Shown here one piece after another: positions 28,280-53,891 of a stretch of 64,000 nucleotides of DNA. This DNA comes from Blasia pusilla (taxonomy: Eukaryota), in assembly GCA_050084515.1 (NCBI GenBank), contig CM114271.1, forward strand, positions 42,036,001-42,100,000, in the 5' to 3' direction. Position numbers and translations under genes: made by a program. Under the pieces are notes generated by a model, which saw only the letters and a program-made list of their open reading frames with translations, made no database searches and had not been told where the DNA came from. Position 1 is the stretch's first letter; the number at the start of each line of letters is the position of its first letter.

Positions 28280-28397
28280 ATATTAGGTGTAGGCTTATGT
28301 GATAACTAGTAAATATGAAACTAAATAAAACGTGAAGAGCTAGACGCAAGGCAATGAAAATTCGCCATTCGGAATACCAGTATTCGTAGGACGTGTC

Positions 28398-28720: not shown

Positions 28721-28938
28721 TGTCATGATTCTCAGCTTACATGAATACTATCCCTATATTGAAGTGGTATATGTAGGTACTTTGGTATATGGTTTACGAC
28801 AAGAACTAGGCCTCAAAAAATAAACACAAACCCTAAATCTCCTAAACATTCCCTAGGATTTCAAGATGCAGAAGATTATCCTCCACCTGCAAGAAGATGA
28901 GTCAAGCACACCTCATTAGTCACTTAGTTGAATTCGGT

Positions 28939-30336: not shown

Positions 30337-31879
30337 AGTTAGAAAGAGGAGAGAAGAGAAGAGAAGAGAACGGGCTCCTTAATTTAGTTCAACCTTTTCA
30401 CTAAAACTCGGTCTTCGTAGACCGCTGCACATTCCCTCTATCATGCTCAAGATTTATGACCGTCATCGTCGTGACGACAACGGCTGAGGTGATGTGCAAA
30501 GCGAAGTCGTGAAGTATAGAGAAATTCGAAGAAACGAAGTTTCTCGATCCCGCTTACATTTCACGGTTTCTAAGGAACTTTAGGTCCGACACTTTGGACC
30601 TAAAGTTGATGTCCGAACCTAAAGTATCACTACTTATCACTTTGGATCTCCTTATGCTCACTCTACCACAAACAGACTGCATGACTAGTAAGTTGAGGAA
30701 TTGGTGAGTTTGTGCTATGATATATCGAGAACAGAAATGGCTACAATTGAGGTTTGTAATTCATGCCATGTTTATCATGCATAGATCAATACTTTAGAGC
30801 AGAACTAGAATGCAGCGTGCATTGGGATGAAGTTGTTAATGACAGACCTAATCATCATGATCGCAAAGCATGTGCATGCCTTTCCTCGCGTCGGGGACAA
30901 GCAACGTAGAATTAGAAATGAAGCAAATTGAAGTAAAGCTTCTTAGATGCAGTTGCTATACACAGATCTGGACTTCCTGATTGTTGCTCAAGAAAGCCTT
31001 GAAGATGCTAGGGACCAGCCAAGTAGAAGTTCGCTGTTTCAGTGTTCATCTTGTTGAACACCTCACAAACAGTGTTCCAAGTCCATGGATATGTACTAGG
31101 CCATGTTTGGAAAAACAGAAACATCAACAAATCGAACGAGTGCACCCCTAAGGTAAAGTGTTGTAACATATCATGACCAATCATGAATTTGGAGTCTTTT
31201 GCTTCTATTCAATTGACTACTGGATAGGAGTGGGAGGAAAGAGTGAAAGTACTCATTTTCCCCAAAGAATAAATGGCAACCCAACGATAAGTAGGTTTTC
31301 TAGACAAGATCAAGAAAAAGAACAATCATCGATGCAAATGGAACCTCATGTAAGGCGAGAGACTTGGCGTTTGCATCGATTGTTCTTACAATGAAAACAG
31401 TGAAATGCATAGTATTGCTGGTATGTTAGGTGTTGTACCGAAGAATTTTGGGTTTGTAAACGCACATCAAAATCTCACCCATGCTAAGATAGAGCGACAC
31501 GACGACGACGACCGTCCTATACTCATGTTCATCGGGGAGAAGACGAAGGCACAAAGTGGAGAAAATTTGACTTTCAAAAGACTATCCAGGCAGCAAAAAA
31601 CGAGGACACCTATGGTCTTTTGAACGGAAAGTGGACTCCGAAATCTTGCCGATAATTACGTTAATATCACATCGCTCCAAATGTATATCAGTCGCTTATC
31701 AAAAAAGGAAGCAGTTAATCCACTTTGTGTAATCTACCATCTTCCTACTCTAATGTACTCAGGTAACAAGCCGCTTGGAGGCGGGGATATTGTCTCCAAC
31801 TTACACTCCAAATTATCCCGTAGGAACCGTTCAATGCTCAAAAGTACATTTCCTTAAACGCATGGCCGCGGCTATCTAT

Positions 31880-32450
31880 GGCTTTTGTCTTTGTCAGATC
31901 GAACAATTTTGGGTGCATCTTTGAAGTTCATCCTATGTATAACAAAGAAGCTTGAGAGGCGAAGGAGGATGAAGATGAAGACAACAACAATGGTACCACA
32001 AAGAAAGACAAACTTAGCATCAAGAAGAGAGGACTTCGTTCTGAAGCTCGAGCATAGTTTGCTACTACAGCGGATTTGGACATGGAGTTGCTTAGTCCCC
32101 TTCAGCAGCAGCGTATGAAGTATAAGCAAAGAAAACGGACCCTTCAGGGTCGGGAAGAGAGTGTAAGTCATGCATGGCTTTGAGTTTCAGAAAGGAGTTG
32201 ACATTGGAGATATGTCGATGTATTTCCTTTTTACTAAATGGAGGGGTCAATTCTCGGAGATGAAAGGATGCGGGTGCAAGCTTGTCCATAAAACTCTGCA
32301 AACTCGACAAATATGCCCACAATTCTCTGCAAATTTGATCTCACAGTGGCTTCATTTCTCTTCCTCACAAATAAAGTTCCGGACTGTAATGCATATTGCC
32401 CGTGACTTCTATGGCTCACGGTGTGACTCCCTAAGGACATAGAACACCGG
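31880..32450 (-). CDS. Putative further accessory ORF fragment near the right TIR
   Basis: Overlapping minus-strand ORFs 32092..32322 and 31872..32171 downstream of the right subterminal repeats. No recognisable domain. Confidence 0.25.
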
Positions 32451-32619
32451 CTAGTGAAATTCTTAAGTGTACTAAGAGAAGAGAATCAGCAACCTCATAA
32501 ACGGATGTCAATGTTGCTGGTGCTCGGGTCCAGAGATTCGATTGAATGACTGAGCGGCTGATCAAAGAAAAGAGGAGAAGAAAAGAGAATAGAAGAGAAA
32601 CACCAACCTCATAGGCCCG

Positions 32620-32960
32620 GAAGGCGATTTGTGGCAGAAGAAAGCTCTCCAGGCGGATTTGCGGATTTGTGGCAGGCCGAAACGAAGCTCTCAAGGCGGA
32701 TATGCGGATTTGTGGCAGGCCGAAACGAAGCTCTCCAGACGGATTTGCGGATTTGTGGCAGGCCGGGACGAAGCCCTCAAGTCAATCGTTGGGACCAATT
32801 CTGAAGTGATAGCGCATACAGCGAAGACCGAAAAACCTCAGCAAACCGAAAAGACGCACTGCATCGAAATAACGCAGCAGATCGCGGCGTAAACGCAAGC
32901 TCTCAAGGCGTATTTGCGCATTTGTGGCAGGCCGGGACGAAGCCCTCAAGTCGATCGTTG
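32620..32960. repeat. ~43-bp subterminal tandem repeat of the MULE right end
   Basis: GGATTTGCGGATTTGTGGCAGGCCG...GAAGC recurs about 5 times. Confidence 0.85.
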
Positions 32961-33884
32961 GGACCGAATAGACGCAGCAGACCCAAAAAATGCAGCAGAC
33001 CAAAAACACGCAGTAGACTGAAAAACGCAGCAGACTGGGTTTCGGGTTTGGCGTTCGGAGGTGAGGGTTCCGTCCGCTCCACCCCGCCGTCCGCTCCGCT
33101 CCGCCGTTCGTCCGTCCATCCGTGAGCTCATCCGTCCATCCGTCCAGCCGTCCGTCCGTCTGTCTGTCCGTCCGTCCACCCGTCCGTCCTCTGTCGGACT
33201 CCGTCCGCTGCCGGTATTACCGACCCTAATCCCGTGCCGAACAGCCTGCGCCTAAGGCCTAATCTACGCGGCCTTAAACGCATGGCCGCAGCTATCTATT
33301 TCTTTGGCCCTACCATTTCGAAAAGTTGAAAATGCAACAAATCTGTGATTTTCCAAGGTTTTGTTGTTTACATCGAGAAAGAGTATGTCTCGAATGTAAT
33401 AAAATATAAACATAGTCTATACCATAGAAACTAAATCATACGGAAATAACTTTTCGTTTTCTTATAGAAATTTTGTTAAGAGCATGAAGAAAGTAAAAAG
33501 TAGTCGTAAGGGGTAAAGAGTTTATAATTAAAGAAAAATAGATCGAAAATCGAAAATATGAAAAAAAATTAAATAAGAAAAAAGAGAGATAATTAGGCAA
33601 GCTATAAACATATCAGATTCAGACACCAATGGTTGTCGTCTGCAAATGGATGAGACCATGAGTGGTCTTCAAGGTTGCACATGGAAAAAGTCAATGTCTG
33701 CGTACTTATGTCCGTCCCTAAGACAAACACGTCCGTGCGGGCCTGGGTACCCGAGCCTGCCTCACCTATAAGGTAAACCCGCGTTCGGTAGCCCGCACCC
33801 ATTTTGTAACATGTACTAGGCCCGCACATGGCTCGCATTGGGCGGGTTTAAGGCTCGCGCAGTGCCCTTAAGGCGGGGTTAGGC

Positions 33885-34192
33885 CCTAGTTGCACAAAAA
33901 CGAACATGGACGGACAAGTCTGAACATGTCCACTAACATAGATTGCAAGAAGTGGGGCCCATATTTATAGTTCATGATGGAAGGCACAACAAGGTGAGTG
34001 GAGCAATAAGGAGGAAGGAAGTGGAGGTGGAGGAAGGAAGAAATAAAAAAGTATGGAACACAAAGGCAAGTCGGGGGAATGAGAAAGAAGAGGAAGGTGA
34101 GGCCTATATGAACAAGTCCTTGGATAGGTTTGATGTAAGTCCACAGAAATGGACATGTCTACGGATGCAGACTTTATCAACATGCAACCTTG
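33885..34192 (-). mobile_element. Nested hAT-type MITE, inverted
   Basis: Reverse-complement homolog of 1816-2132, ending TGCAACCTTG. TSD is degenerate (GGTTAGGC/GCTCAAGC). Confidence 0.8.
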
Positions 34193-34311
34193 GCTCAAGC
34201 TTGTATAGGGGCCCGCAACTCAGCCCGCAGTGTGTTGCTGGCTTGAGCCCACCCTGAAGGAGGGCCTAACTCACTTTACCATGGGTTGGTGTAGGCCGCG
34301 TGTGGGCTAGG

Positions 34312-34627
34312 CAAGGTTGCATGTGGCAAAATTCTATGTCCGTGGACATGTCCATGTCTGTCCTATGGAAGGACTTGTCCGTATGGGCCTCACCTTTCTC
34401 TTCTTTCTTATTCGCTTTACTTGCCTTTGTGTTCCATACTCCCCCATTTCTTCCTCCCTCCACCTCCACTCCCTCCTCCCTCATTGCTCCTCTCATCCTT
34501 GCCTTGCCTTCAATCATGGACTAAAGTTGTGGGCCCCATCTCTTAAAACCCATGTCCATGGACATATCCAAACTTGTCCGTCGATGTCCGTCCTAAGGAA
34601 GGAATTGTCCATTTTTTTGCAACCATG
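34312..34627 (+). mobile_element. Nested hAT-type MITE
   Basis: CAAGGTTGCA...TGCAACCATG with a perfect TSD GGGCTAGG at 34304-34311 and 34628-34635. Confidence 0.92.
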
Positions 34628-36107: not shown

Positions 36108-37171
36108 CTGTACTCATTAAGTAGTGCACGTCGTAGCCTTGCGACCATAGACCCCGCGCCCTGGTTGGACGGTGCTTGAGACTGGGATGGGTGTAGAGAG
36201 AGAAGCAAGTGAAGAAGGTACCATATGAGAGGAGGGAGACACTCTCATATAGTGTGAGTGCTGACCAAACAACGTGTTTGTGCGGAGCTTCCAAGTGTCA
36301 ACCAAGAAACTCTTCACCACACAATCTACTTTACCTGATTGGGATCCCCAATAGACATTACTTACCAGTGTAGCGGCTTTGGGCAATGAATCAAGGCTAC
36401 TGAATGTGTTGAACAATTTTGGTGCTACCAGCTTAGCAATATCAACATATGCTCTTGCTCGGTGTGTTGTGAATTTTGCGCAGGAGACCAAGTAATGACT
36501 AGAGGTTTCGTCCCCATCGTCACACAAGGCGCAAGAGTTTAGTTGTGTTCCTATCCCGCTTTTCTTATGGTTCAAGGGATTGCCCGTCTTGAACTTGAAC
36601 TTGAGCCGGGTTCCCAAGCAAGGGGTTCCCCGCAAATAGTTCTTGATTCGCCATCTCGGGATATACCGTCAAAAGAGAGAGGTCGACATTTTCATGGCTT
36701 CCTCCATCTTTATTCTGCTTTGTGAGCGTTTGCCCACCGCTTTGGTTATGGTATCCACGAATGCTTTCTCATCTTGCTCCCCACATTCAGGCCTGTTGGG
36801 AGCTTGGATGCTTGCACAATCTCTTGAACCTTTTTGTCCAAGATTTGGCCCGCTTTTACGGGTCTTCTTTGGGTCAGTTTTCCCCATCACCTCTTTAGGA
36901 TAGCGATGGGAGTCCATTGTCTCCAACGCCTCCGCCATTTCAACTTGGCGATGCCACGTCTATCCTCCAAGGGTTCCACACCTAGTTCTGATCTCACACC
37001 AACGCGGGCTGTTCGTGATGAAGTTGACATCATACCCCGAAACGCCTTCAGGTGCACAGCTTCAAGCCTATCCCTTTGTTTGGTGTTGGCATCCCACACT
37101 GCTGCCCCGTATTCCAGCGAGGGACGAATGGTATGCAAAATGACACAGCGCTTTACTTCTGATGTGATGTC
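36108..37171 (-). mobile_element. LINE 3' half (RT thumb + C-terminal CCHC; L2/RTEX-like)
   Basis: VKRCVILHTIRPSLEYGAAVW...GVRSELG...KLKW, then RLKFKFKTG...CALC...HYLVSC. Confidence 0.85.
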
Positions 37172-40100
37172 CCCCCTCCGACTCTCTTAAAACTACGACC
37201 AACACATAGTACATATGCTTACAAGGGAAATACCTTTTGCCACTTGTCTCTCTTTGGACAAAGTCATCACATGAACATGTGCGAAAGCAACAGATGTGCA
37301 CCACATACACCCCTGTGACACTTGAATTTATAGTGTTGTTCCTGACCCAATACATCCTTCCTATTCCATTGCCTCTCAGGACATCTTTTGTGGCGATGAT
37401 CTCCATTTTTGCCTCCCAAGCTGATGCAATTCGCTTTGCTCTCTCCACTCTTGGCCTACACATTCTGTTTCTCTTCACCCCATTTCTAGACTCAAACAGA
37501 AATAGTGGATTGAGATCATCCACCTTCTCCGGGTACATGTTGACATGAATCTTGGGTTGAATACGAAATGCGAAGGTCTCTCTGATGCAAACATGCTCCA
37601 AACTTCCTCCGTCTACAAGTCTGAAACCGGCACTTGTAAGATTTTCCACTTCGTCTTGAGTGCAGTTCGTACCTGCGGCGATGGGCCAAATCGTGGGGGT
37701 ATTCCCCGGAGCTCCAATGGTAGCCGGATAAGACTTCCGGAAAGCACAAGATTCATTTGGGCAGAAGAACTACTTCAATTGATCCCCGGTCCTCGTGAAA
37801 CGATCAAAGGTTTTGAGTCCCCAAAACCCAGGCAGTGGTCGTCCAATCCTTGTACAGTTCTTATTTAGGAAAGTGCCGCATGCTCTCCTAATACCATCAG
37901 ATCCTGCCCTGCAAGTGGGTCCACATGCTAGGTTGCTCCGAGATATATGCCACCGTTTTAGGTTGCAATCCACCTCCATTACCGGAATCCCATATTGTTG
38001 AACCATCCCACCGACCGGATGTTGCGAACTTCCAGCAACGGAGGGCTTTTGAAATAAAAAATTCATTGATTTTGGAGAAGTTACTCCATCAAGGATTTGG
38101 GAGCGGTCCGGGGTCCCCGAATACCTAGGCGGCGTAATTCCTCATCCAAATCAATCAGCGGATTCGTTCCTCGATGCTACCTCTTCACCTGCCTGAAGTC
38201 AAGATACTTATCTGGTCTCCACGGCTCGGACTGCTCTACCACCATCTGTATGGGACGTATTGAAACCCACCCATGAATATCCCCACCAATGTGTATGTCT
38301 TGCTCCATGGGAGTTCCTGCTACGCACCGGTTGAAGGCTTCCACATAGAGTTTTTCATCACCAGATCTCACAGCCGCCTTGACATAGAGCTTGTAGATCG
38401 AAGGCCCCCTTCCTTTTGTTATGCCTTTTGTGAGGAAGATATGGGATGCTGCAGACTGTAGTATTGCTCTTGCCTGGTCTTGTTGGCATGCCTGCATAAG
38501 TGAAATTCGTTGGCATGCTTGTGACGACCTCCAGGAGGAATGAACACTTTCTGCTCCACTTGTGTTGGGGCAGGGGGCATTTTCATGAATGTTCAATCCC
38601 TACAACGACGGCAATGTTAGAAGGGAACGAAAATAGCTCAGAAGTCAAAGAAATAAGCTACCTGTCAGAACCAGACGGGTTGCAAGGCCGAGGCATCCCA
38701 TGAATGACTCTGCGACCCGTCGGGTCCCGACGTGTTGCAACACCCAAGAAACACCTACTACAACCCGTCCGATTCCGACGAGTTGCAAAAACCTTTGGCC
38801 ACTCCGGGCTGGAAGATCCAAGTGCAAGTCATCCGAAACCCATCCGGGTCAAACTATTTGCAAGCCTTGTATACATGCAACTTGCATACTTGTATACGGG
38901 TTGCACCAAAATTCTGGATGCAACCCGTTGGTTTCCGACTGGTTGCACACTCAAGCAACCCATCCGTTTCCAACGGGTGCACACTCGGGCAACCCGTTGC
39001 ATCCGAAAAATTGCTTGGTTTCTTTGGTTTGAAATCCCTATAGTTCCCACGCTTCTCAACTTGAGCTGCAACTTTTCAAACAATTCTCAACGTGAGCTTG
39101 ACAAGACGAAATAGTGAACTCACCCGGCCGCATGAGGTTCCCCATTGTCTCATACGTACAATCCACCAACTCAACCAAGAGCACAACTCTTTGTACTTCC
39201 CCTCAATTGCATGCTTCCTCCACCACCCATGAAGTTATTCTTGGCATTCCATGGCATGTTTCAAGGTTTTGCTGTCCTTGCAGCGTTGGAGTAAAGTGAC
39301 ATGCTCTGTCCTCTTATTCTCCTTGATGCAAGATTTGGTGTACCGGGTCACAGACTGTTGCCAATGGAAAGCATCCGACCTTTCCCTCTCCGGTTGAACC
39401 TCTCTACCCAGAACACTTCCCTGATAGCAATCCACCCAGGTTGTGCATTGTCCGCCAGGAACCCATAAATTTCCGGAGGTGGCCTTTTGTTTTCCTTCAT
39501 CACCTCCAATAAGAGTAACCAGTACATCTTCAAACTACCAACGTCTTCTGCTTTTACTTCATAGACAAATATAGCTTTGAGTCCCTTCTCCACATGGTCA
39601 TAAACGTGAGCACCCATTGTCAACCATCCGTTCAGCACTGTGTAGCAAATATCAAAGCTTATCCAACTGCCGTAAAGATCTTCCTCTTCCCTCATTCGAT
39701 CTATAAGATCGAGGGCACTCGACGGACTTGTGGTTGACATTTTGAAGACATAGGCCCTGGATCCCTGGCCTCCCTGGCCCATGAATTGCCATCTCTGAAT
39801 GAATGGAAATGTGGAGTTGGCCTTGATTCTGGCAATGACATCCATTTCGGCCGTCTTTCCATCCAGTACCCGTATTTGACGCAACAAATTCCGAAGCATT
39901 CAGGATTAGCGAGAAATGCGAGATTTTCCCATAGTTGTTTCTCCTCAGCAACTGTGATCTCGCCATGTCTAGGGATTCCAAGAAATTGTTCACAAATTTG
40001 TGATGTTGTTGTGAGCTTGATCACTCCGGGCTTTGAACCCGGAGAATTTCTGTAGACCTCGCCAACTTTCTTTGCCACATCCTCCTTGATGTGTCTCTGA

Positions 40101-41126
40101 ATTGCATCGGTCACAGGATGAGTGTGGGAGCCAACCCCAGCCTTGTGTACTCTGACGTGGAGCCCAAGTCGTGGACAATGAAAAATATGTATGCAGAACA
40201 CGCTCCAACGCAGAAGGGGGATGCCTGACAATGAGGACATCGATGGCCTCCCGGCGGTATGGTGGCACCAACCTCATATGGAGTTTCTGCATTCTTGGGG
40301 GGGAATTGCGACATATTGACTCGCCCGTTGCGCTCTAGTACAAGCATGCTTGACTTCTACACTCCAAGGCTCCAACGGATTTTCGGCGGGAGACAATCCA
40401 AGGACCATCTCGAATTGAAGCACTAGTCCGTTGAAGCCTGCACCATCGATGACAATCAGACTTTCTGTCCACACCCTTCAAGCGTCCTCCATCTTTCTTT
40501 TGAGCAGGAGCAGCAAGTGGAGGCAACTCAAAAATGCAATTACCATTGTACGTGGGCGGCAGCTCATCGACAAGAATGTGCTTGAACATTTTTAAGGCTA
40601 GAGACGATAGCAAACTATTGCCTGATACTCGCAAGAGGAACGAGTAGGCGGACAAAGGGCCCGGTTGGTGTCCGACAGATCCACTGAGGTTGACAACATC
40701 CGGAATATCTTCAAGAAGTACAACATTGTTACGAGCGTGTGAAGTTGGAGTCAAAGCCGGATCTACTGAGCTAAGAGTTGCAAACATAGAGCTCGGCGCA
40801 CTAGGAAATTCTCGACCGTCTACTTGGGAAACAAAGGAATTGAGGGGCAAGCCGTTAACTCTATATTGACCATTTGCTAGAGGTAGGAGATTCCATACTT
40901 TACGGTCTGCAATCACTGGCTAGACTGTCTCACCTATTATGTCCTCCGTACCATCCATCCTAACATCCTTGGATACAAAGATGGTTCCAATTTGGAGAAG
41001 AAATCGAACTGAGAGAAAATTTTCATCCACTGCTATGAAAGACTCATGAGCTTGCGGTCGAACGATTTCTGATTGAGGAAGGGCCGCTAGATGACTGCCA
41101 CAAGTGAGCTTCACATAATTATCCAT
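37172..41126 (-). pseudogene. Second, distinct MULE-type DDE transposase with C-terminal SWIM (frameshifted, 3'-truncated)
   Basis: Cys/His N-terminal region (...HTHPV). Core WISFD, FLADNA, DAFHW and TSGAESVH. SWIM CSCDDF...CKHMYYV. Probable intron at ~38600-39110. Confidence 0.75.
38657..39014. repeat. Intronic array (~9 units) of palindrome TGCAACCCGTCGG-N3-CCGACGGGTTGCA
   Basis: Units near 38657, 38711, 38759, 38876, 38919, 38956 and 38989, plus degenerate ones. Confidence 0.85.
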
Positions 41127-41281
41127 TCGTAGAAGATTCCACGAGAGGAGACAGAGAATTGTTATGAGAATGAGAATGTTTAATTTATAGTGAATAGAGA
41201 CTCAGATTCTCCTGACAAAATTTGACTGCCAAGATGAAGTTTGGTAGGTTAAAATGTCTGACACAATGGATTCAATTTTGT

Positions 41282-42220
41282 TGCAACCTGTCGGAGTCAG
41301 GTGGGTTGCAGAATTTGGGATTCAAAGACGTTGGTTGCGAAGCATGCACTTCTTTTTTTTGGAACCTGTCGGAGTCCGTTGGGTTGGTACCCCCTTCTTG
41401 CCGACTAAAGGTCTTTTGAGTCGATTTTGCTAGCATCAAACACAAGATATCGCTTGCATATGCTAAGGCAACCAATCCTTGGGGACTTTTGCAGGATTGT
41501 CAAACTCAGGGTAGATCTTATGACCCGTCGGATTGCAATGGGTTGCCTCGAAACTATGCGTTGTCGCATTGTTACCCGAGGGATAGAAAAGCGTGCAACC
41601 TGTCGATAACCGACGGGTTGCCCTGGTACCTTGCCTATTAACCCAAGATAAGTTAAGCGTGCAACCCGTCGGCTTTGGACGGGTTGCACGCTTCTGCCTC
41701 ACCTTGTAACGCTAACATGAAGGAAGCGTGCAACCCGTCGATCTCCGACGAGTTGCACGGGTGCCGTGCCTTCTTGCCCGAAGATGGCGAAGGCGCGCAA
41801 CCCATCGGCCTTAGATGGGTTGCGCAATTGCCTCACCTTGTAAAACTTACATTAAGGAAGCGTGCAACCCGTCGACCTCAGACGGGTTGCGCAAGTGCCT
41901 CGCCTTGTAGCGCTTACATGAAGGAAGCATGCAACCTGTCGGCCTCCAACGAGTTGCACGGGAAGCCCGCCTTGTTATCCCAAGATGAGGGAAGCGTGCA
42001 ACCCACCGAATCCGACGGGTTGCACGGGTACCTCGCATTCTTGTCCAAAGACGTCATAGGCGCGCAACCTGTCGGTCTCTGACGGGTTGCATGGGAACCT
42101 TGTGTTCTTGTCCGAAGACGGAGGAGGCGCGCAACCTGTCGGTCTCTGACGGTTTGCCATGAGGACGGATGCCTTGAACCCTCAAGAAGCGTGCAACCTG
42201 TCGAAGCCTTTGGGTTGGTG
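41282..42220. repeat. Regularly spaced array (~13 units) of a ~34-bp palindrome with ~33-bp variable linkers
   Basis: GCGTGCAACCCGTCG...GACGGGTTGCACG at ~41591, 41657, 41726, 41793, 41860, 41927, 41994, 42060, 42127 and 42189 (period ~67), plus degenerate units at 41282, 41361 and 41521. Confidence 0.92.
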
Positions 42221-42305
42221 TTTTTCACATCCAGACTTCCATAACGGCCGGCACGTCGTCGTTGGAAGGACGATGCGACCCAACGGTAAGCCCAACGGCT
42301 CGAAA

Positions 42306-42314
42306 AGTATAAAT
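42306..42314 (+). promoter_or_regulatory. Candidate TATA box for the plus-strand accessory ORF
   Basis: GTATAAATA lies right after the palindrome array and ~270 bp before ATG 42578. Confidence 0.4.
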
Positions 42315-42577
42315 AGGGGAAGGTTCGCTCATTTCCGGTTTTTCGTTTCGCGATCTCAATTGCTCTTCCGCATAGCAGCTGACCAGATACCAAGGGATGC
42401 TTTACACGGTGACTCATCGTGAGACGATTCGAGCAAACGATCGCGAGATGATTAGAGCTACTCATCAAGATGACTCATCGCGACATCAGCAAGGTGACTC
42501 ATCAAGGCGATTCCTCGAGCCAATTCATCGTGCATAGAGAGCAATTTCCTTGTCCATAGGAGGCATTTTCAGGAACA

Positions 42578-43445
42578 ATGACGAGGAAAAAATCTCAAGC
42601 AAACAAGGCTGGGAGCTTCACTCCCTAGTCCATGAGGACTCCTCCGTCACCATCTCCAGGGCCTCAGTCCGCCAATGAGATAAGGCAGCAAGAAATCGAG
42701 GAGCGGGAAAGGGAAGCAGAGATGCACAAGCATGAGCTTCTTGCAAAACGTGTAAATGAGGCGCTCGAAAAACAGAACGCAGAGGCTGAGGCGTCGCAGG
42801 CCTTGAAGAAAAGGATGGCCGACGAAAAGCGTGAAAAGAAGCGTCTAGATGCGTTGGTGAGGAGAGCAGAATTGGCAAAAGCTCGGAGGGAAAAAGCAAT
42901 TGCCATTGAAGAAAGCCCTGCCTGTCCAACCGAAAGTGTTGAGATGCAGGAAATGTCCCCGATGAAGTCCGGGGACACAATCAATATAGCGGAAACGGCC
43001 GAAGTTCAAGTGACGGACGATGAGGTCATGAAGACCGCCAGCGTGGAGATGGTGGACATCGCTCAAGAAGCATGAGAGCGGTCATCCTTGTCTCTAAGCC
43101 CGGCGGAAGAAATCGACCTCTATCGGATCGACGAGTTTCCAGTGGACTTGCCAACTGCTATCCCAGATCAATTGGCTGGCCAAGACACCGACCCAATCTT
43201 CGAGCGGGTAAGAGAGGATCTGTGTTCTTTGAATTATGTGAAGGCCCATGTTGCAATTCATTGGCAATTCAATGTAGCTTATTGACCTCGTCCCCGTTGT
43301 GACAGATGGTAAAGCAGATGGCACTGATGGAGGGCCAAACGCCCCAAGAATTCCACTTTTCTGATTGCGAACAATGGAGTACGTCCGCGAAATTCAGTGT
43401 GACGAGGATATTGCGAAGCTAAAACAATCGGCAGCGACAGTGTAA
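42578..43445 (+). pseudogene. Coiled-coil accessory ORF, divergent from the second transposase
   Basis: One frame runs from ATG 42578 through 42632..43075 and 43088..43285, broken only by single stop codons. E/K/R-rich coiled coil. The 3' end is approximate. Confidence 0.6.
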
Positions 43446-44188
43446 TGTCTAAGTGTTTCTTATTTACAGTTAATTGTAGAGTTCGATCCCCAAGAGGATC
43501 ATTGTTGGATGAAAAGAGAGTATAAGGTGATGATTATGTTGTAAAAGGGTAATTGATTATGTAATTCAATTGTAGTATTCCAGTATCAGCTTCCGATCCT
43601 TCTTAGTACCTATGTTTTCTTCTTCAATTCTCTCGAGTGGAGTTTAAAGGACGCTCAGGCAATTTTTTCTCTCATCATCTCGGAACCTCACAGAGACCTC
43701 AAGAATAAAGCTGGCTTCTCCTACTTTCGGAACTCAATCTGTCGGGGCAGGTTACTCTCTGTCAAACAGATTTCATACAACTTTATATTGATTATTCCAT
43801 TGATGAGAAAGGATCGTCTGATTCACTCTTCACTCGGCAGATCCAAAAAGAATGTTCAGACATAAGCATCGCACATCAGAATGAATGAATGAATGCTTTA
43901 CTACTCCATCAAGAATTGGAAGACTTCAAAGTATCTACAAGCTCGAGAGGGTATAACTCTCTTGCTCGGACCATTCCTACAGCATAAGGACGTCATGAGC
44001 GAATGATGCTAATAGCTTCTGTCCTGTTTCTTAAATATTCTCGAGGGTAGGATCGCTTCTATGATCCGAAGCGTTCTTGATGAAGGGTGTGTCTTTTCAA
44101 TATCTGTAACTACCTAGATCTATGGTTCTCTTAGCTTTTCCTACGATCCCTATGAATCCGCGGTACAAAACTGTCCTAACTACCAATT

Positions 44189-44542
44189 TGATACAAAGGG
44201 TCGCGCCCTTTCCTAGTCTAATTGTTTAAACTATGTGTCGATGCAAATCTCAATCATGCTGAGCTTCGCTGCGCTAAATTTCCGGAGGACGAAGTTCTTC
44301 CTTCTTCTTCGTGCTTCGTGCTTCGCTCTTCGTGCTTCGCTGAGCTTTTATACTTCTTTACAGCTTTTGATTCTCCTCTAAAGCAAATCCTTGATCTTGA
44401 TCTCTCTGCCTTGTCTTCGGAGCTTGGTGATTCACTTATTCTTCTTCATAATAATAGATAATCATAATCAAAATCATAATATACAAGAGTCTTCGTTGAA
44501 TAAAAAGATATATTCTTCAAGATTACAAAATTGTGGGTATCA
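44189..44542 (-). mobile_element. LTR (354 bp) of a non-chromoviral Ty3/gypsy element
   Basis: TGATAC...GTATCA inverted termini. On the minus strand it is preceded by PPT GAGGGAGGGGG and followed by AATTGGTAG (PBS-like). Confidence 0.8.
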
Positions 44543-44712
44543 CATACCCCCTCCCTCAAATGTGAGCCGCCCCGGCGAACACTTCATGATGTATCTGCTA
44601 TCTCCATAAATGTGTCGTCTAAATTATGAAATTCAGGGGTAGGCACCAAACGGCCATGAATCGTAGAAGGTTTGTTGATAATGTTAGGGGTATGATTGCG
44701 CATTCTTTCTCG

Positions 44713-46204
44713 CTACTTGTTAACAACTAAGTGACTCCCGAGGACCTCATTCTGGACTAAGACATCAGATGGAGTGAATGCTGGTAATTCTTCAAGAGTA
44801 ATGGAAAGAGTGGGTACTACTTCTGGAAGAGATTTAGTATGATTGTCGAATTGGCGCTTCCAATGTTTGTTGATGTAGTCGATTTCCTCTTTCATCTGCT
44901 CTTCGAAGTTCTTGCTTGCTTCGTCGACCAGTTCTTTGACATCGTCCGGATCCATCTGGGCTTCGTTGAGTAGCTTCTGCTCTGCCTCCAAGACTGCGAT
45001 CCTCCCGGTAGCCTCCGTCCACTGTGCTAGTAAGTCTTTGTTCGCTTCTTGATGTTCTTGAAGCGGCCAAGACTCAAAGATCTTTCGGATCGACAACTTC
45101 TTGAATTCGGTTTGAACCTGCTGTATCTGATGTCGATACTTGTCAAGGAGGTGCGAAGCGTCCTTGATCTGCGAAACTAACTGATCCGCCCCACATTCGA
45201 GGTTAAGCGCCAAACTTTCCCATTGGCATGCGTTGCGTGCCAGACTAACACCGACCAAGTCGCTCCGAGTTTTGCGGGCGTGGTGCGCGTTTCTTCGAGT
45301 TCCTGGTTCCGTGATTTGCGATTCATTTCGCTCCTCGACGCCATGCCGTGGTCTCGGCGAAGATTGGGCTCTGCAATTGAGGTGGTGCAAGCCTTCTAAA
45401 TAATCGTCCACGGACGCCGTATCCTCGAGTTGAAGAACCCGCTGGAGTTGGTTCATGACGGGAACTGCCAATTGCAAGAACCACATCATGTCGTCTGCCG
45501 TTTGCGACATGAGACGAAGCGTAGGTTGATGATCCCTTGCCCGCGGGGTCTCGTCGGAATCCTCCTGCATGACAGGTTCTGGGTCCGGGGGTGATTCAAA
45601 ATTGACCCGGCCTCGCTTTGGCGAGGCATTTCGTTGATAGCCGTCTTTCTTCAAAGCCGGTGTGCGGATGTTCCGAGGTGCTTCGGAGGGCGGGGTGACT
45701 TCGCGGCTACCCCTGGTACTAGTTGCGCCTTTCCGTGGTAGTCGGACGGGGTCACTTACGACGCCTAACGCCTCCTCTGCGGTCAATTCACCTTGTGAAT
45801 ATAAAGGTGAATCAAGAAAGGAGAGAGGAAGGACTTCGTGCTTGGATGAAGCACGCCCACCATTCCTCGATGCGTGCCCGCCCACAAAGCAGCAAAGTCA
45901 ACTCCTGGGGCTTCGGGGTCAAGGTGTTGATTCCAGATGATGTAGCACATCTTCAAGATCTTGTTCGCCGATAGTAAGAACGAGCGGATAAAATAGGTCA
46001 TCGATGTTTGCAAAATCGACCAAAGACGGGCGGAGAGAGTGAAGCCTTGTAGCCGTTTTCGCCAGCGCCAGGCGTGATACACGAAAGTGCTAAAAGATCT
46101 TCATGTTTGACGAGCAACTCCGTGTCATACTCGTACTCGGGCGCGGCCGAGAGCGAATAGGTTGCTCTCGCCGTCCGCCGTCGGTGTTGAAATGAGCTCG
46201 ACAT
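44713..46204 (-). CDS. Extra ORF between integrase and PPT (390-aa open part, coiled coil; probably ~500 aa with two frameshifts)
   Basis: Open frame 44713..45885 with overlapping upstream frames 45783..46082 and 45998..46207. Same sense as pol. Confidence 0.65.
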
Positions 46205-46849
46205 CAAGACCCTTCTTTCAAAATTTGGCGATCAGAGACGCCGGCTTAAGCTTGCCAGGAGTTTCGTGATGTTAGAGTCCGCTTGGCTTGAAAGAAAGTT
46301 GCCAACGATCGCTCCTCCGGTGCTTCGATCAGCCGGTGATGTTTTTTGACCGTCGGCATCGCCGCCCGAGAATGGGTGTGGCGTCTTCGCGAGGCATGTT
46401 GCTAGGTTGATCTCGATGGACACCGCGCTTTGGCCTACTACGCAACCGTGGTGATCCGTCCATGAAAATACCCGCTGGGTACGCCAGATCGCTCTTATAG
46501 TCCGCTCCCCCGTCCGTTCTTGGTCGGGCGCCGAGGTCAGAATAACAAGAAAGTGGGCGCTTGCGGCCGCCACGCCCCTTCCTATCTTCCTCGCGCTCGC
46601 CGCTTCGCGAAGCATGGGCCGTCTGGAACCTCGGTGCTTCGCTACTGCCAAGCTAACTCTTGATATTTTGAACTTCGTAGCCGCTACTGCCGGGCATCAG
46701 ATATCTTCGTGCCTCGTCGAACCTCGCTGAAGCACAAGATATCTTCTATGCCTCGTAATCTTTGAAACGGTATATCTTCTATGCCTCGTAACGCACGGGC
46801 GTTCGCCTACCCCCTTCCTCATGTTTGATCATCCTCAAGTTCGGGCTCA

Positions 46850-48056
46850 TAATACCGGCCAAGACATGCATTCCGTTGACTCGCGTGGGCAAAGGATTCT
46901 CCCGTAAGGTTTCTAATTGAGGGATCCATTATCATAGATGGCCAATACCGGTAGGGTCCCATCCAATTTAATTTTAATTTTCCGGGAACTTTAGTCGGTT
47001 ATCATACAATAGCACTAAGTCGCCAACATTGATAGATTGTGGCCGGAGATGTCGATCGTAACGTTTCTTACGTTCTTTTTGCACTTGGGTTGTCCGTCGT
47101 AACGCGAGCATGCGTGCTTCTTCCAACTCCACTAGAGTCTCATTCCTGTGTTCGATAACTTCGTCCGCAGCTTCCGTTCTTGTGCCCTCCAATACCCGGT
47201 AAGTGGGCAACGCCCATTGAATAGGTGTTAAGGGATGTACGCCATACGTCAAGAAGAACGGGGTGTAGTTTGTCGTCACCTTCTCAGCTATTCGGTACGC
47301 CCATAAGGCTGGGGCAATTTTTGTGTCCCAATCATAGGAATAGGTTACCGTTAATCGATTCAATATTCGGCAAATGAGGCCGTTCGATTTTTCCGTCAAC
47401 CCGTTGGCTTTAGGGTTGTAGGGAGTGGTTTTCGATGCTTAATGAGAAAGTGGGAAGTGAGAGACTCAATAGTCTGGTTCGGAAGTCGTCCCGGTCACCG
47501 ACTAGTTCCAACGGACGACCATAACGCGTGATAATCATCTCGTATAAAAACTTAGCCATGCTTTCACATGTCATCTTTCCGCGTGGCTACCGCTTCAACC
47601 ATCTTAGTACAATAGTCCGTGGCGATAAGAATATACTTCCGCCGGGTTTGGCGAGTGGCCTGGGAGATAGGGCCTACGAAGTCAATGCCCCATTTTTCAA
47701 AGGGAGCTAGGGGCATGATGGGGACCAAAGGCCACCGTAGTCGCTGTGGGTCGACTGCCGCCTTTTGACAGGCATCACAACTCCGAATAAAATTACCTTC
47801 GTCTTTGTACATAGTCGGCCACCAATATCGTGCGGCCAAAATTTTCTTCACGGTATTTTTTACCGCATAGTGTCCACCGGAATTAGCCATATGCAGAGCT
47901 GTGATGACCTGGGGAACCTCTTCAGCTTCCAAGCATCTTCGATGCTCTTCATCAGCACCTAATTTGAATAAGACCCCTTGACAGAGCTCGTAAGGGCCTA
48001 TCCGATGTAAAAAAACTGCGCGTTCTTCCGCTGTCATCGGGGCAGGAAGTCGCAGA
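46850..48056 (-). pseudogene. Ty3/gypsy integrase (Athila/Tat-like lineage)
   Basis: HMANSGGH...YWWPTM...CDACQ (HHCC), FEKWGIDFVGP, ATDYCTKMVEA, NGLTEKSN, ALWAYR, TPFFLTYG and a GPY motif. Frameshifts near 47400-47560. Confidence 0.92.
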
Positions 48057-48445
48057 GTCATGTAGGAATCTGGACAGACCGTTCACCTTCTTGTGGCCTT
48101 TCTCAGTAGTCTTCTTGATGTGTGCATCCCATATGCAATCTTCCGAGAATTCTATGCCCAGATAGATGTAGGTAGCCACATGGGGGATCTCTTGGTCACC
48201 CCAAAGACCACTTTGTTGGTCTTGGTCCTCCTCCTTGCCATTGAAAATCATCACACCGCACTTCAGGACATTTGCCTCCATGCCCCACATGTCACACCAG
48301 ATTTTGGTCAGGGAGATCATCTCTTGGAGTTTCTCTCCTGTTTCCTCGAGGCCACCAAAGTCATCAGCAAACATGAGGGCAAAAATAGAGTTGTTGCCCA
48401 CCCGTATGCCTAGTCCACTATCCTCCATTTCTTCCAATAGGGAAT

Positions 48446-48450
<5 letters not shown>
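48057..48450 (-). mobile_element. LINE 5' part (RT core), partner of 36108-37171
   Basis: ALMFADD...LQEMI...NVLKC...YIYLGI...KVNGLSRFLHD joins in frame to ITSEVKR at 37168. 5'-truncated at an (AG)14 run. Confidence 0.88.
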
Positions 48451-48478
<28 letters not shown>

Positions 48479-48510
48479 TTAATTCTCTCTTTGTTGAATC
48501 TCTTTTGAAT

Positions 48511-48845
48511 TTCATGTGGAAAAAGTCTGTGTCTGCAGACATATCCATGTTCGTGGACTTATGTAAATCCTAGGGAAAGATTTATCTATGTAGGCCCCAT
48601 CCCCCTCTTCTTTCTCTTCCCCTCTATTTTCTCTGTGATCTGGACTTTCTCATTTCTTTCTCCCTCCATCTCCACTCCCTCCCCCCTTATTAATTGCCTC
48701 GCCCGCTTGTGCATTGTCTAAGTTATCTTCCACCATGAGCTATAAGCATGGCACCACCTCTTGCAATGCATGTCCGTGCACATGTCCAAACTTGTACATC
48801 CATGTTTGTCCTAGGGATAGACTTGTCCATTTTTGTGCAACCATG
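48511..48845 (+). mobile_element. Partial hAT-type MITE (left TIR lost)
   Basis: Homologous to 1816-2132 and ends TTTTTGTGCAACCATG. Confidence 0.7.
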
Positions 48846-49559
48846 TGTATAATGCAAGAGCTTAAGTGTGTTTCCTGGTTTTGGATTTTGGTCATGGGAG
48901 TGTTCACGGGAATAAGAGCCATTGTTTGTTGCATTGGGTGTACAGATTGTTTTGTGTAGGAGAAAGTTGCGTGACAATACTGCGTGATTTTGAGTAGAAT
49001 TTAAATATGGGGATTATGTGTGCCATGCTAGGACTCTTGGGAGCACGCTGGAGTTCACTATTTTGTTTTGTGATAGTTTCAAATTTTGGTGTGGAAGAAA
49101 ATCAATGCAAAAGTGCTGCCACATTTTTCGTAGGAATTGAGGGAGTGGGTTGAACGATAGTCACCGCTAGTTCTAGATAGAAGGTTGAATAGAGAAGTAT
49201 ATTTCATAATTTTGTAAAGTGGGAAGTCAAGCATACTATCAAAAGAATGGTGCGTGATTTTGACATGTGAGCACGGAGTTGTGGCCATTTTTGTAGGTTG
49301 TGATAGCCATTGTGTGAGTGAAATTCCAAATTTCCTTGAGTAACTCTTTTTTTCATGTCTAGAGAAGTAAAAAATATCTATTTAGTATTAAATTATTTTT
49401 CTATTGAAGGCATAATGAAGTGGGAAACAAATATTTGGGTGAGTTTGACCCTCATGTTGAGGGGATACTTTAGGAAAAGTCCAAGTTGGGGTAGATTTAG
49501 GGGAGAATGGATATTTTGAAGGGGCCATTTTAGTTTAAAAAAAGATACAGAGAGTAGTA

Positions 49560-53891
<4,332 letters not shown>

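What the first reader, a model, noticed from the sequence alone, without database searches (positions are those of the whole stretch)
41282..42220. CRISPR-like architecture in a eukaryotic transposon: regularly spaced 34-bp CpG-rich palindromes between divergent transposase and accessory genes
Seen: ten consecutive palindromes at a ~67-bp period plus three degenerate ones, with ~33-bp linkers that vary more than the palindromes. The array lies between the minus-strand MULE transposase and a plus-strand TATA box with a coiled-coil ORF. CpGs persist here although the neighbouring ORF carries C>T-type stops. The linkers fall into related classes, so it is not a true CRISPR. Inference: a cis-array plus trans-factor module (VANC-like anti-silencing, or an autoregulatory operator array), or a source of structured small RNAs. 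This is the top candidate for an undescribed system in the window.
Basis: partly seen in the sequence, partly recalled or inferred. Interest (0 to 1): 0.85.

Follow-up and report, generated by a model that had tools for sequence, protein, structure and literature searches.

The report
Palindrome arrays inside a Mutator-like transposon
A very abundant, decayed DNA transposon carries clusters of one conserved 27-bp palindrome between its two genes and inside an intron of its transposase gene, which most likely are docking sites for a protein the transposon itself encodes, much like a system already known from Arabidopsis.

Summary
At 41283-42219 there are 13-14 copies of an 11-5-11 palindrome (GCAACCCGTCG N5 CGACGGGTTGC). 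Nine sit at a 66-69 bp period, and the linkers fall into two classes.

It lies in an intron that splits the catalytic domain of the minus-strand transposase gene.

- **Conservation:** palindrome arms are 86% alike, linkers 43%.
- **Structure:** there is no compensatory pairing, so the half-sites are conserved as sequence, not as a stem.
- **CpG:** observed/expected is 1.0-1.3 in the array and promoter, against 0.6 in the coding parts.
- **Same element:** whole-genome reads give the transposase and the plus-strand accessory ORF equal, very high depth, and unit numbers vary between copies.
- **Relative:** a 42%-identical transposase on a metagenome contig has three unrelated perfect palindromes in the homologous intron.

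Best reading (about 0.5): these are family-specific binding sites for an element-encoded dimeric DNA-binding protein, working as a cis-regulatory or anti-silencing array like VANDAL/VANC, En/Spm TnpA or the AtMu1 transposase. Binding, methylation and small RNAs are untested. The likeness to CRISPR is superficial. I rate it a new variant of a known kind.

The parts
41283..42219 (.). Main array: 13 anchored palindromes (11-5-11, consensus GCAACCCGTCG N5 CGACGGGTTGC). Nine regular units lie at 41595-42157 with a 66-69 bp period and two linker classes (134-bp higher-order repeat). Degenerate units lie at 41283, 41361, 41520 and 42193.
38657..38999 (.). Second cluster of the same palindrome: units at 38657, 38712, 38760, 38920 and 38955, a degenerate one near 38877 and a half-site at 38989. 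Spacing is 34-118 bp and the linkers are unrelated to those of the main array. It lies in the intron between the 'QWG' exon and the 'NTSGAESVHSS' exon of the transposase.
   Evidence: RNA depth is 0 in bin 38602-38868 in 3 of 3 RNA runs
37176..41126 (-). Decayed transposase gene with frameshifts and stops, cut at 37175 in this copy. Its pieces are: the N-terminal Cys/His-rich part (ORF 40335-40919), ORF 39701-40273, the DDE-like core (39348-39899), 39235-39534 (RERSDAFHW), 39124-39237 (WW..RQWG), then the intron, then 38177-38599 (NTSGAESVHSS) and 37068-37769 (CxCx15CxH, weak SWIM). The ATG at 41126 is only a candidate start.
38600..39123 (-). Putative intron. The donor is GTGAGT at 39123 (family consensus CAG|GTGAGT from the loose-end consensus). 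The acceptor is near 38600, before the exon that aligns with L001 1399-1662. It is homologous to the gap 1078-1399 of L001, which holds three different palindromes.
   Evidence: RNA reads at 39025-39108 show that the first ~100 nt are partly present in RNA, so the exact donor is uncertain.
41183..41189 (-). TATAAAT on the minus strand, 94 bp from the first palindrome and about 60 bp upstream of the candidate ATG at 41126.
   Evidence: read; its function is inferred
42308..42315 (+). TATAAATA on the plus strand, 89 bp from the last (degenerate) palindrome.
   Evidence: read; its function is inferred
42578..43206 (+). Accessory ORF, first exon: ATG at 42578, in-frame TAG at 42626 and TGA at 43073, a K/E-rich helical part, and a possible GTAAGA donor at 43207. 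No Pfam family, no homologue found. DNA depth equals that of the transposase.
42410..42503 (+). 5' leader of the accessory gene, holding 3 of the window's 4 exact TGACTCATC copies and a 13-bp tandem repeat. Other copies of the family differ here by a 51-52 bp replacement.
37175..37175 (.). Left break of this copy. 663 WGS reads continue leftward with a different sequence. To the left lies a LINE-like fragment (weak zf-RVT) with high RNA depth.
43440..43440 (.). Right break of this copy. 514 WGS reads continue rightward with a different sequence, and 398 more do so at 43337. Depth falls from about 1200-1490 to 480.

Best explanation
The palindromes are family-specific binding sites for a symmetric (dimeric) sequence-specific DNA-binding protein that the element encodes. 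That protein is either the Cys/His-rich N-terminal part of the transposase or the accessory protein. The sites are concentrated in the element's non-coding DNA, in two places. One is a roughly 940-bp divergent promoter region between two TATA boxes, driving the transposase leftward and the accessory gene rightward. The other is an intron inside the transposase catalytic domain. The arrays grow and shrink by tandem duplication. Occupancy would activate transcription or keep cognate copies free of silencing, as shown for VANC on VANDAL21, for TnpA on Spm and for the AtMu1 transposase.

Shown here: the architecture, the conservation pattern, the position in the family, CpG retention, and a different palindrome in the same intron of a relative.

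Inferred: that a protein binds, which protein it is, and what binding does.
For: 1. Half-sites are conserved while everything around them is not. Arms show 86% mean pairwise identity (94% at the 14 non-CpG columns), against 43% for linkers. Arms of class A and class B units are 86% alike, although their linkers are only 41.5% alike (9 units; the same pattern appears in the MAFFT columns).
2. The same palindrome sits in three unrelated sequence contexts: class-A linkers, class-B linkers and the intron cluster.
3. Pairing is no better than in column-preserving shuffles. Observed pairing is 69.2% against 70.3% shuffled, and 415 of 500 shuffles are at least as high. Only 8 cells changed on both sides, against 13.1 expected. 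So sequence is conserved, not a stem, as expected for a protein site.
4. A transposase 42% identical over 145 residues (metagenome contig L001) has three perfect 26-bp palindromes (TATTGCTAGCGCC|GGCGCTAGCAATA, 84-90 bp apart) in the gap between the same two exons. The position is kept and the sequence is replaced.
5. Whole-genome reads give equal depth to the transposase (about 1280-1570) and the accessory ORF (about 1220-1490). Joints show other copies with fewer or more units in both clusters, and the family continues beyond both ends of this copy, so the array is internal.
6. CpG observed/expected is 1.0-1.3 in the array and promoter, against 0.61-0.64 in the coding parts.
7. Two TATA boxes flank the array symmetrically, about 90 bp from each end.
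8. Precedent: VANC21 binds short motifs that form rapidly changing tandem repeats in introns and upstream of the transposase gene of VANDAL21 (PMC5735166, passages). The AtMu1c transposase alone binds and activates cognate copies (bioRxiv 10.64898/2026.08.24.746577, section 7).
Against: - No binding, methylation or small-RNA data were available.
- The conservation test is within one copy only. Only 40 of 1022 variant rows were shown, none of them in the array, so arms and linkers could not be compared across copies.
- Only one relative locus could be fetched, so the comparison rests on n = 1.
- Read depth over the array (about 330-610) is a quarter to 45% of the flanks. I attribute this to sequence and length variation, but it could mean that many copies lack this version of the array.
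- 30 of 56 arm differences from the consensus are C>T or G>A, and this copy carries an excess of such changes (A>G 145 and T>C 129 places, against C>T 48 and G>A 72). The sites have therefore been decaying, as in methylated, unprotected DNA.
- The accessory ORF has no recognisable DNA-binding or VANC domain.
- Internal tandem arrays are common in the neighbouring, unrelated MULE too, so an array by itself is not special.
Confidence: 0.5

Rival explanations
1. The array is a neutral internal minisatellite. A palindromic seed was amplified by slippage or unequal crossing-over, and the palindromes look conserved because of gene conversion or hairpin-templated repair. No trans-factor is involved.
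For: Unit numbers vary between copies in both clusters (joints). Tandem arrays are frequent in transposons of this window: element A has four, and one of them is made of 8-5-8 palindromes. The palindromes are decaying at C>T/G>A sites. No function was measured.
Against: Pure amplification predicts that arms and linkers diverge alike. Instead, arms are 86% alike between classes whose linkers are 41.5% alike. The palindrome recurs in the intron with unrelated flanks. A relative has a different palindrome in the homologous intron. Hairpin-templated correction would raise within-unit pairing above shuffles, and it does not.
Confidence: 0.2
2. The palindromes are transposase docking sites that serve transposition itself, as an internal enhancer of synapsis like the internal activation sequence of phage Mu (recalled), rather than serving transcription or anti-silencing.
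For: The same conservation evidence applies. Transposases commonly recognise repeated sites within their own element. The sites occur in two clusters 2.3 kb apart that flank the 5' half of the gene.
Against: The sites are internal, not subterminal. The family continues past 37175 and 43440, and no motif is visible in the 30-nt loose-end consensus sequences there. The position between two TATA boxes suits a promoter role. The element's true ends were not seen, so it is unknown whether they carry the motif.
Confidence: 0.1
3. The palindromes act as hairpins or cruciforms. Intronic or promoter hairpins could be processed into small RNAs, could influence splicing, or could act as DNA-level structures.
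For: Single units fold well as single strands, at -9 to -21 kcal/mol with z-scores from -3 to -8.7. The middle unit of L001 is a perfect 60-nt palindrome, at -34.9 kcal/mol with z = -13.5. One cluster lies in a transcribed intron.
Against: There is no covariation or excess pairing over shuffles. Only one unit (41797) has a matched double change. The outer six bases of each arm never vary in the 9 regular units, which a stem does not require. RNA-seq depth over the array is at most 1.8, and it is 0 over 38602-38868 in 3 of 3 runs. There is no Rfam match at E <= 1. Small-RNA libraries were not examined.
Confidence: 0.08
4. The sites are read by a host transcription factor. Many units contain CCGAC, the DRE/CRT core as I recall it, which would make the array a stress-responsive enhancer captured by the element.
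For: GTCGG/CCGAC occurs at the inner edge of many half-sites. The array lies between TATA boxes.
Against: The invariant part is the outer GCAACC/GGTTGC, not the CCGAC core. The relative L001 has an entirely different palindrome at the same place, which fits a co-evolving element-encoded reader better than a conserved host factor. The motif assignment is recalled and was not tested.
Confidence: 0.07

Closest known systems
VANDAL21/VANDAL6 and their VANC anti-silencing proteins in Arabidopsis (PMC5735166 and PMC10398659; passages read)
   Same: It is a Mutator-type element with a transposase and accessory gene(s). [quoted passage not shown] Repeat number changes quickly between copies, and related families carry different motifs.
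   Different: The motif here is a 27-bp two-fold symmetric site, not a 8-9 bp asymmetric one. The transposase is not recognised by Pfam MULE. The accessory ORF shows no DUF1985 or DUF287 in the part present. Binding and hypomethylation were not tested. The host has a much larger genome, and this 8-kb stretch takes about 0.5% of WGS reads (61,298 of 12,434,590).
En/Spm (CACTA) TnpA and its repeated 12-bp sites, and the AtMu1c transposase as an autonomous activator (bioRxiv 10.64898/2026.08.24.746577, abstract and section 7; the details of the 12-bp sites are recalled)
   Same: An element-encoded DNA-binding protein recognises reiterated sites in the element's own promoter region and switches cognate copies on.
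   Different: Those sites are terminal or subterminal. Here the arrays are internal, and one lies in an intron.
Short interrupted repeat cassettes (SIRC) of Arabidopsis (PMC10342631; abstract and sections 2.1 and 2.3 read)
   Same: These are interspaced short repeats (10-29 bp, some palindromic) with diverse spacers. They occur mostly inside transposons, including VANDAL elements, and give a CRISPR-like picture in a eukaryote.
   Different: SIRC is a descriptive class with 2-8 repeats and low-copy spacers. Here the spacers are themselves two repeat classes, and the repeat is a long perfect-type palindrome tied to one transposase family.
CRISPR arrays
   Same: Both have regularly spaced, partly palindromic repeats of about 30 bp with spacers of about 35-40 bp.
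   Different: The spacers are not unique acquired sequences. No cas genes were seen among the 28 ORFs of 36-49 kb scanned with Pfam. The context is a eukaryotic transposon with introns. The period of 67 comes from a 134-bp higher-order repeat.
IS256-family and Mutator-superfamily DDE transposases
   Same: The model shows an RNase H-like core. The best structural match is the IS256-family ISCth4 transposase (Z 5.4, 100 residues, rmsd 3.9). The motif order is D ... D ... (D/C)xxH ... ES.H, followed by a CxCxnCxH finger. ESM features point to MULE clusters (0.92).
   Different: There is no Pfam MULE hit for the window ORF or for any of 10 homologues scanned (0 of 10). hhalign against the window's own Pfam-positive MULE gives a probability of 1.7%.

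Membership tests
CRISPR array | Unique spacers of foreign origin between identical direct repeats | tested here: not met
   The linkers fall into two related classes that form a 134-bp higher-order repeat.
CRISPR array | Adjacent cas genes in a prokaryotic context | tested here: not met
   Pfam scans of 28 ORFs in 36-49 kb found only SWIM (weak), zf-RVT (weak), integrase and RT hits. The genes have spliceosomal-type introns.
VANDAL/VANC-type anti-silencing module | [quoted passage not shown] | tested here: met
   There are two clusters, one in the 5' intergenic region and one in an intron, and 33 of the 42 motif hits in the window fall in them.
VANDAL/VANC-type anti-silencing module | Repeat number and motif differ between copies and between related families | tested here: met
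   Joints in WGS reads show copies with more or fewer units. Relative L001 has a different palindrome at the homologous place. This rests on one relative only.
VANDAL/VANC-type anti-silencing module | Accessory protein with the VANC domains DUF1985 and DUF287 (PMC5735166, Fig. 5 legend) | tested here: not met
   There is no Pfam hit at E <= 10 for 42629-43075, and only a weak PHD-like hit for 43024-43302. The gene is cut at 43440 in this copy, so its downstream part was not seen.
VANDAL/VANC-type anti-silencing module | The protein binds the motif and causes local loss of DNA methylation | not testable with these tools
   The only indirect sign is CpG o/e of 1.0-1.3 in the array and promoter against 0.6 in the coding parts.
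Mutator superfamily (MULE) transposon | Transposase matches Pfam MULE (PF10551) | tested here: not met
   There are 0 families for ORF 39348-39899 at E <= 10, and 0 of 10 homologues have any Pfam hit.
Mutator superfamily (MULE) transposon | RNase H-like DDE core related to IS256/Mutator, followed by a zinc finger | tested here: inconclusive
   The AlphaFold model has pLDDT 78.5. The best VIA match is the ISCth4 (IS256 family) transposase at Z 5.4, below the usual noise ceiling, and Foldseek gives E = 0.088. ESM features give MULE at 0.92. SWIM scores E = 0.031, below the cut-off. hhalign gives a probability of 1.7%.
Mutator superfamily (MULE) transposon | Terminal inverted repeats and 9-11 bp target-site duplication (recalled) | not testable with these tools
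   Both ends of this copy are missing (loose ends at 37175 and 43440), and no own genome is held.
En/Spm-type subterminal transposase/TnpA site arrays | Sites lie in the subterminal regions next to the element's ends | tested here: not met
   High-copy family sequence runs from the array at least 4.1 kb to the left and 1.2 kb to the right, and continues in other copies.
SIRC (short interrupted repeat cassette) | Short (10-29 bp) direct repeats interrupted by diverse sequences, often inside transposons | tested here: met
   A 27-bp repeat is separated by roughly 40-bp linkers inside a transposon. This is a descriptive match only. SIRCs were defined with 2-8 repeats, and here there are 13.

The most novel reading that the evidence does not exclude
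A transposase lineage that Pfam does not recognise, present at very high copy number in a large genome, runs its own operator-and-regulator circuit. Long two-fold symmetric sites are read by an element-encoded dimer and are placed both in a divergent promoter and in a conserved intron that splits the catalytic domain. The sites are replaced wholesale between sister families as the reader protein changes. This would be an anti-silencing or auto-activation system that arose independently of VANC.
Probability: 0.3. Interest if true: 0.7.

Novelty: new variant of a known kind. Interest (0 to 1): 0.45.

Why it matters
If the palindromes are bound by an element-encoded protein, this would be a second, independently evolved case of the VANC/TnpA principle, in which a transposon carries a private cis-code that only its own protein reads. 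It would occur in a different transposase lineage and a much larger genome. Its long symmetric site would be easy to assay and could be reused as a sequence-specific epigenome tool. The conserved intron position with swapped motifs offers a natural experiment on how DNA-binding specificity and target sites change together. If they are not bound, the locus is one more internal minisatellite of a dead transposon.

Tried and rejected
- **Own-genome search:** no genome is held for this window.
- **Cluster members and source names of the homologues:** the database was switched off, so the taxa of the 112 homologues are unknown.
- **Whole-frame Pfam scan:** I scanned single ORFs instead.
- **Word-index homologue searches:** no hits for the DDE ORF among longer proteins or for the accessory ORF.
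- **Accessory ORF in the ESM Atlas:** best score 0.83, no family.
- **Similarity to element A:** no tblastn or blastn similarity between it and the 33.4-49.2 kb region. BLASTP of the two transposase cores found nothing.
- **PDB sequence search with the family profile:** nothing meaningful, best E = 0.041 to a designed protein.
- **Foldseek:** no match at E <= 0.001.
- **Relatives in genome contigs and viral contigs:** none found. With the 19-sequence alignment the metagenome scan could not start. With 5 sequences it gave one locus.
- **Pattern scan of viral contigs for the palindrome:** one isolated hit, L002, at chance level by my estimate and not followed up.
- **Read-through tails of homologue proteins after the QWG motif:** too short to show repeats (6 of 112 had the motif).
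- **Rfam:** 0 matches at E <= 1 in 37000-45000.
- **Sequencing runs:** no RNA holder was listed by the index.
- **Cross-copy, per-base comparison of arms and linkers from the laid reads:** not possible. Only 40 of 1022 'other letters' rows and 15 of 159 joints were printed, and no RNA splice joint was among them.
- **bZIP idea for the accessory protein:** considered because of the TGACTCATC repeats, then rejected by eye because there is no basic-region signature. Not tested.
- **Supplementary files of the papers:** not consulted. The supplementary figures of PMC5735166 on the repeat alignments might sharpen the comparison.
Full report
**1. The observation**

- Tandem Repeats Finder reports period-67 arrays at 41655-41957 and 41931-42157, and a period-134 repeat at 41589-41890.
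- The unit holds an 11-5-11 palindrome, GCAACCCGTCG N5 CGACGGGTTGC.
- With up to two mismatches the half-site occurs 42 times in the 64-kb window. Dinucleotide shuffles give 6.7 on average and 14 at most, and 0 of 100 shuffles reach 42.
- 23 of the 42 hits lie in 41283-42203.
- Anchoring on the left half-site gives 13 units. Nine regular units start between 41595 and 42131 and are 66-69 bp apart. Degenerate units lie at 41283, 41361, 41520 and 42193.
Unit 41661 has 16-bp arms.
- The linkers form two classes that alternate in part of the array, which explains the 134-bp period.
- A period of 67 bp is not a multiple of three, so the long ORFs across the array are by-products of the repeat.

**2.

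Ten further half-site hits form a second cluster at 38657-38999. It has five clear palindromes, a degenerate one and a lone half-site. The spacing is 34-118 bp, and the linkers are unrelated to those of the main array.

**3. The gene to the left**

The minus-strand ORFs from about 41.1 to 37.2 kb are pieces of one decayed gene. ORF 39348-39899 has 112 homologues at E <= 0.001 among 1.84 billion representative proteins. The best is at 2.6e-36 with 43% identity.

The family shares these motifs: FKMS..GSG.DL..RMQPGGDL..W.MFD, HVYD, GFMADxAxxxW.AVR, RER.D/C.FHW, WW and FW..R.RQWG. The other ORFs are colinear with homologues:
- 40335-40919 aligns with residues 13-108 of P0009 (E = 1e-10).
- 39701-40273, 39235-39534, 39076-39237 and 38177-38599 align in order with the metagenome contig L001.

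Evidence against a standard MULE assignment:
- Pfam does not recognise the family. There were no hits for the window ORFs apart from a sub-threshold SWIM (E = 0.031) at 37068-37769.
- None of 10 homologues scanned had any hit.

Evidence for a Mutator-superfamily assignment, all of it weak:
- ESM features place the core among MULE clusters (0.92, and ten of ten best named hits).
- The order of motifs fits (a D, a D, D/CxxH, then NTSGAESVHSS, then a CxCx15CxH finger).
- In an AlphaFold model (pLDDT 78.5), the best structural match is the IS256-family ISCth4 transposase. Its Z of only 5.4 is within the noise range the tool states. Foldseek gives E = 0.088.
- hhalign against the window's own Pfam-positive MULE aligned just the second-D motif, at 1.7% probability.

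I therefore call it a Mutator-like DDE transposase, probable but not shown.

**4. The second cluster lies in an intron that splits the catalytic domain**

- The exon ending ...RQWGTSCGR is followed by GTGAGT at 39123. The family consensus read from loose ends is CAG|GTGAGT.
- Six homologue proteins that contain the QWG motif run on into short, unconserved tails, five of them beginning LV(S/R). This is what a read-through GT(G/A)AGT donor gives.
- Protein similarity resumes at about 38596 with LNIHENAPCPNTSGAESVHSS (E = 1.7e-17 to L001).
- All palindromes of the cluster lie between these two points.
- RNA-seq depth is 0 in bin 38602-38868 in all three RNA runs, while neighbouring exon bins have 1-20.
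- One caveat: RNA reads at 39025-39108 show that the first ~100 nt after the donor are present in some RNA. The exact donor, or the extent of intron retention, is therefore open. No RNA splice joint was among the 15 of 159 joints printed.

**5. The relative**

The one related locus I could fetch is L001, a 2078-bp metagenome contig that is 42% identical over 145 residues. It has the same exon pair, with a gap from about 1078 (...WTQWGNYIRL|gtaatg) to about 1399.

In that gap lie three perfect 26-bp palindromes, TATTGCTAGCGCC|GGCGCTAGCAATA, spaced 84 and 90 bp apart. The middle one extends to a perfect 60-nt palindrome. Their sequence is unrelated to the window's palindrome. So the place and the kind of element are conserved while the sequence is replaced. 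This is one relative only. Scans of genome contigs and viral contigs found none.

**6. Conservation inside the array**

Over the nine regular units:

| Comparison | Mean pairwise identity |
|---|---|
| Arms, all 22 positions | 86% |
| Arms, 14 non-CpG positions | 94% |
| Linkers, 40 nt, ungapped | 43% |
| Linkers within class A | 59% |
| Linkers, class A against class B | 41.5% |
| Arms, class A against class B | 86% |

- The ungapped register understates linker identity where there are indels. The MAFFT columns show the same contrast: the outer GCAACC and GGTTGC are invariant in the nine units.
- Of 56 differences from the consensus in 18 palindromes, 30 are C>T or G>A. Two units that are out of register inflate the total.

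**7. Sequence or structure?**

I scored 17 nested pairs on the alignment of 18 palindromes.
- 69.2% of cells pair, against 70.3% in shuffles that keep column composition. 415 of 500 shuffles are at least as high.
- Changes on both sides are fewer than in shuffles (8 cells against 13.1).
- Sliding the partner drops pairing to 29-38%, which only says that the consensus is a palindrome.

So there is no sign that pairing itself is maintained. Two independently conserved half-sites are what a symmetric protein dimer would require. Single units do fold well as single strands, and there is no Rfam match.

**8. Position in the element, from reads**

I laid about 1% of a whole-genome run and three RNA runs of the same coded organism on 37000-45000, accepting reads at least 80% alike.
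- 61,298 of 12,434,590 DNA records mapped, so the family is very abundant.

Summed DNA depth along the stretch:

| Region | Depth |
|---|---|
| 37267-41004 (transposase) | about 1280-1570 |
| Two bins of the intron cluster | about 1000-1050 |
| 41005-41271 | about 950 |
| 41272-42606 (array, promoter, leader) | about 330-610 |
| 42607-43407 (accessory ORF) | about 1220-1490 |
| Further right | 480-200 |

- The equal depth of the two gene regions indicates one family.
- Joints show other copies in which units are skipped or added in both clusters. Examples are 38739>38897 (140 reads), 38741>38660 going back 82 (272 reads), 42090>42221 and 42159>42221. The last two also tie the array to the promoter region in other copies.
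- No loose-end pile of 295 or more reads appears at the array borders. The low depth there therefore looks like dispersed sequence and length variation rather than a sharp insertion. I cannot exclude that many copies carry a different version.
- Large loose-end piles at 37175 (663 reads), 43337 (398) and 43440 (514) show that this copy is broken there and that the family continues on both sides. The array is therefore internal, not subterminal.
- Most reads are 5-15% or more diverged from this copy: 230 at 99% or above, 8148 at 95-99%, 28515 at 90-95% and 24405 below 90%.
- Places where the window has A or T against G or C in the family (A>G 145, T>C 129) outnumber the reverse (C>T 48, G>A 72).

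**9. Promoter geometry, CpG and expression**

- Read directly from the sequence, a TATAAAT lies on the minus strand at 41189-41183, 94 bp from the first palindrome. A TATAAATA lies on the plus strand at 42308-42315, 89 bp from the last.
- The plus-strand ORF starts at 42578 and has in-frame stops at 42626 and 43073. It is K/E-rich and has no Pfam family, no Atlas neighbour above 0.83 and no homologue.
- CpG observed/expected is 1.0 in the array, 1.1 in the regular units, 1.31 in 42221-42577 and 0.87 in the intron cluster. It is 0.61-0.64 in the transposase parts and 0.73 for the window.
- RNA depth is low over the transposase exons. It comes mostly from pairs whose first mate lies on the plus strand, which fits a minus-strand RNA in a usual stranded library. 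It is at most 1.8 over the array and at most 1.9 over the accessory ORF.

**10. Reading**

The pattern fits best with binding sites for an element-encoded symmetric DNA-binding protein that regulates cognate copies. The pattern is:
- a long symmetric site conserved as sequence;
- the site reiterated in non-coding DNA of a transposon, both upstream of the transposase gene and in an intron;
- unit number changing between copies;
- a different site at the same place in a sister lineage;
- local CpG retention.

This is the logic shown experimentally for VANC on VANDAL21. There the protein localises to introns, intergenic and terminal non-coding regions, binds a 9-bp motif, and the motifs form fast-changing tandem repeats in introns and upstream of the transposase gene. 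Related families use different motifs (PMC5735166, passages; PMC10398659, passages).

A 2026 preprint reports that the AtMu1c transposase alone binds and activates cognate copies, and that Spm TnpA derives from a transposase (abstract and section 7).

The reader protein here cannot be told from sequence. The candidates are the Cys/His-rich N-terminus of the transposase and the accessory protein. I put this reading at about 0.5. The rivals are a neutral minisatellite (0.2), a transposition enhancer (0.1), hairpin or small-RNA function (0.08) and a host-factor enhancer (0.07).

**11. Comparison and novelty**

The CRISPR likeness is visual only. Interspaced repeats in plant transposons have been catalogued as SIRCs (PMC10342631).

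Membership in the VANC system proper fails on the accessory-protein domains, at least for the part of the gene present. Membership in Pfam MULE fails as well. 'Works like VANC/TnpA' remains the best functional analogy.

My two literature searches listed no description of palindrome arrays in a conserved transposase intron, but they were narrow. I rate the finding a new variant of a known kind. The architecture is well supported and the function is untested.

Noticed in passing
window 18602-33305: A separate 14.7-kb element with 102-nt terminal inverted repeats (91% complementary) and a Pfam-positive MULE transposase (21075-21566, E = 8.5e-10). It has no similarity to the element studied here. 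It carries four internal tandem arrays: 216 bp x6 at 23964-25345, 22 bp x7 at 27585-27794, 47 bp x5 at 28413-28722, and 43 bp at 32642-32965.
   Followed up: partly
window 28413-28722: The 47-bp array of that other MULE is also made of spaced palindromes (GTCGTCTA-AAAGA-TAGACGAC, 8-5-8). Its units share the 9-mer AACCCGTCG with the half-site studied here. Arrays of spaced palindromes may be a recurrent feature of this genome's MULEs.
   Followed up: partly
window 36117-37190 (minus): A LINE-like tail (weak zf-RVT, E = 0.01) abuts the break at 37175. RNA depth in 37000-37266 is 100-195 per direction in all three RNA runs, far above anything in the transposon, so this retroelement family is well expressed.
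   Followed up: no
window 46200-51300 (minus): LTR-retrotransposon pieces: integrase zinc-binding domain (47564-48082, E = 2.5e-14), a weak RT hit (47952-48569), and a strong RT hit at 50347-51276 (E = 1e-24). The 394-aa ORF at 44713-45897 has no family.
   Followed up: no
window 33900-34600 and 48510-48629; also 11551, 33670: MITE-like inverted-repeat structure (134-nt arms, 83% complementary), with related copies elsewhere in the window. One arm pairs with 48510-48629 (120 nt, 73%).
   Followed up: no
window 42410-42503: Three of the window's four exact TGACTCATC copies, plus a 13-bp tandem repeat, lie in the 5' leader of the accessory gene. Many other copies of the family replace 42507-42558 with a different ~20-nt stretch.
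   Followed up: partly
L001 1172-1231: A perfect 60-nt palindrome (28-bp arms, -34.9 kcal/mol as single-stranded DNA) is centred on the middle intron palindrome of the relative.
   Followed up: partly
window 38730/38978 with 41593-41621: WGS reads join the intron cluster to the main array on opposite strands (58 and 67 reads, but only 31-33 letters on the shorter side). This could be cross-mapping between palindromes, or real inversions or deletions between the two clusters in some copies.
   Followed up: no
proteins P0035 and P0099: Two homologues match the query in many separate stretches: 12 stretches in a 1534-aa protein and 4 in a 979-aa protein. They may be tandemly repeated or concatenated transposase fragments.
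   Followed up: no
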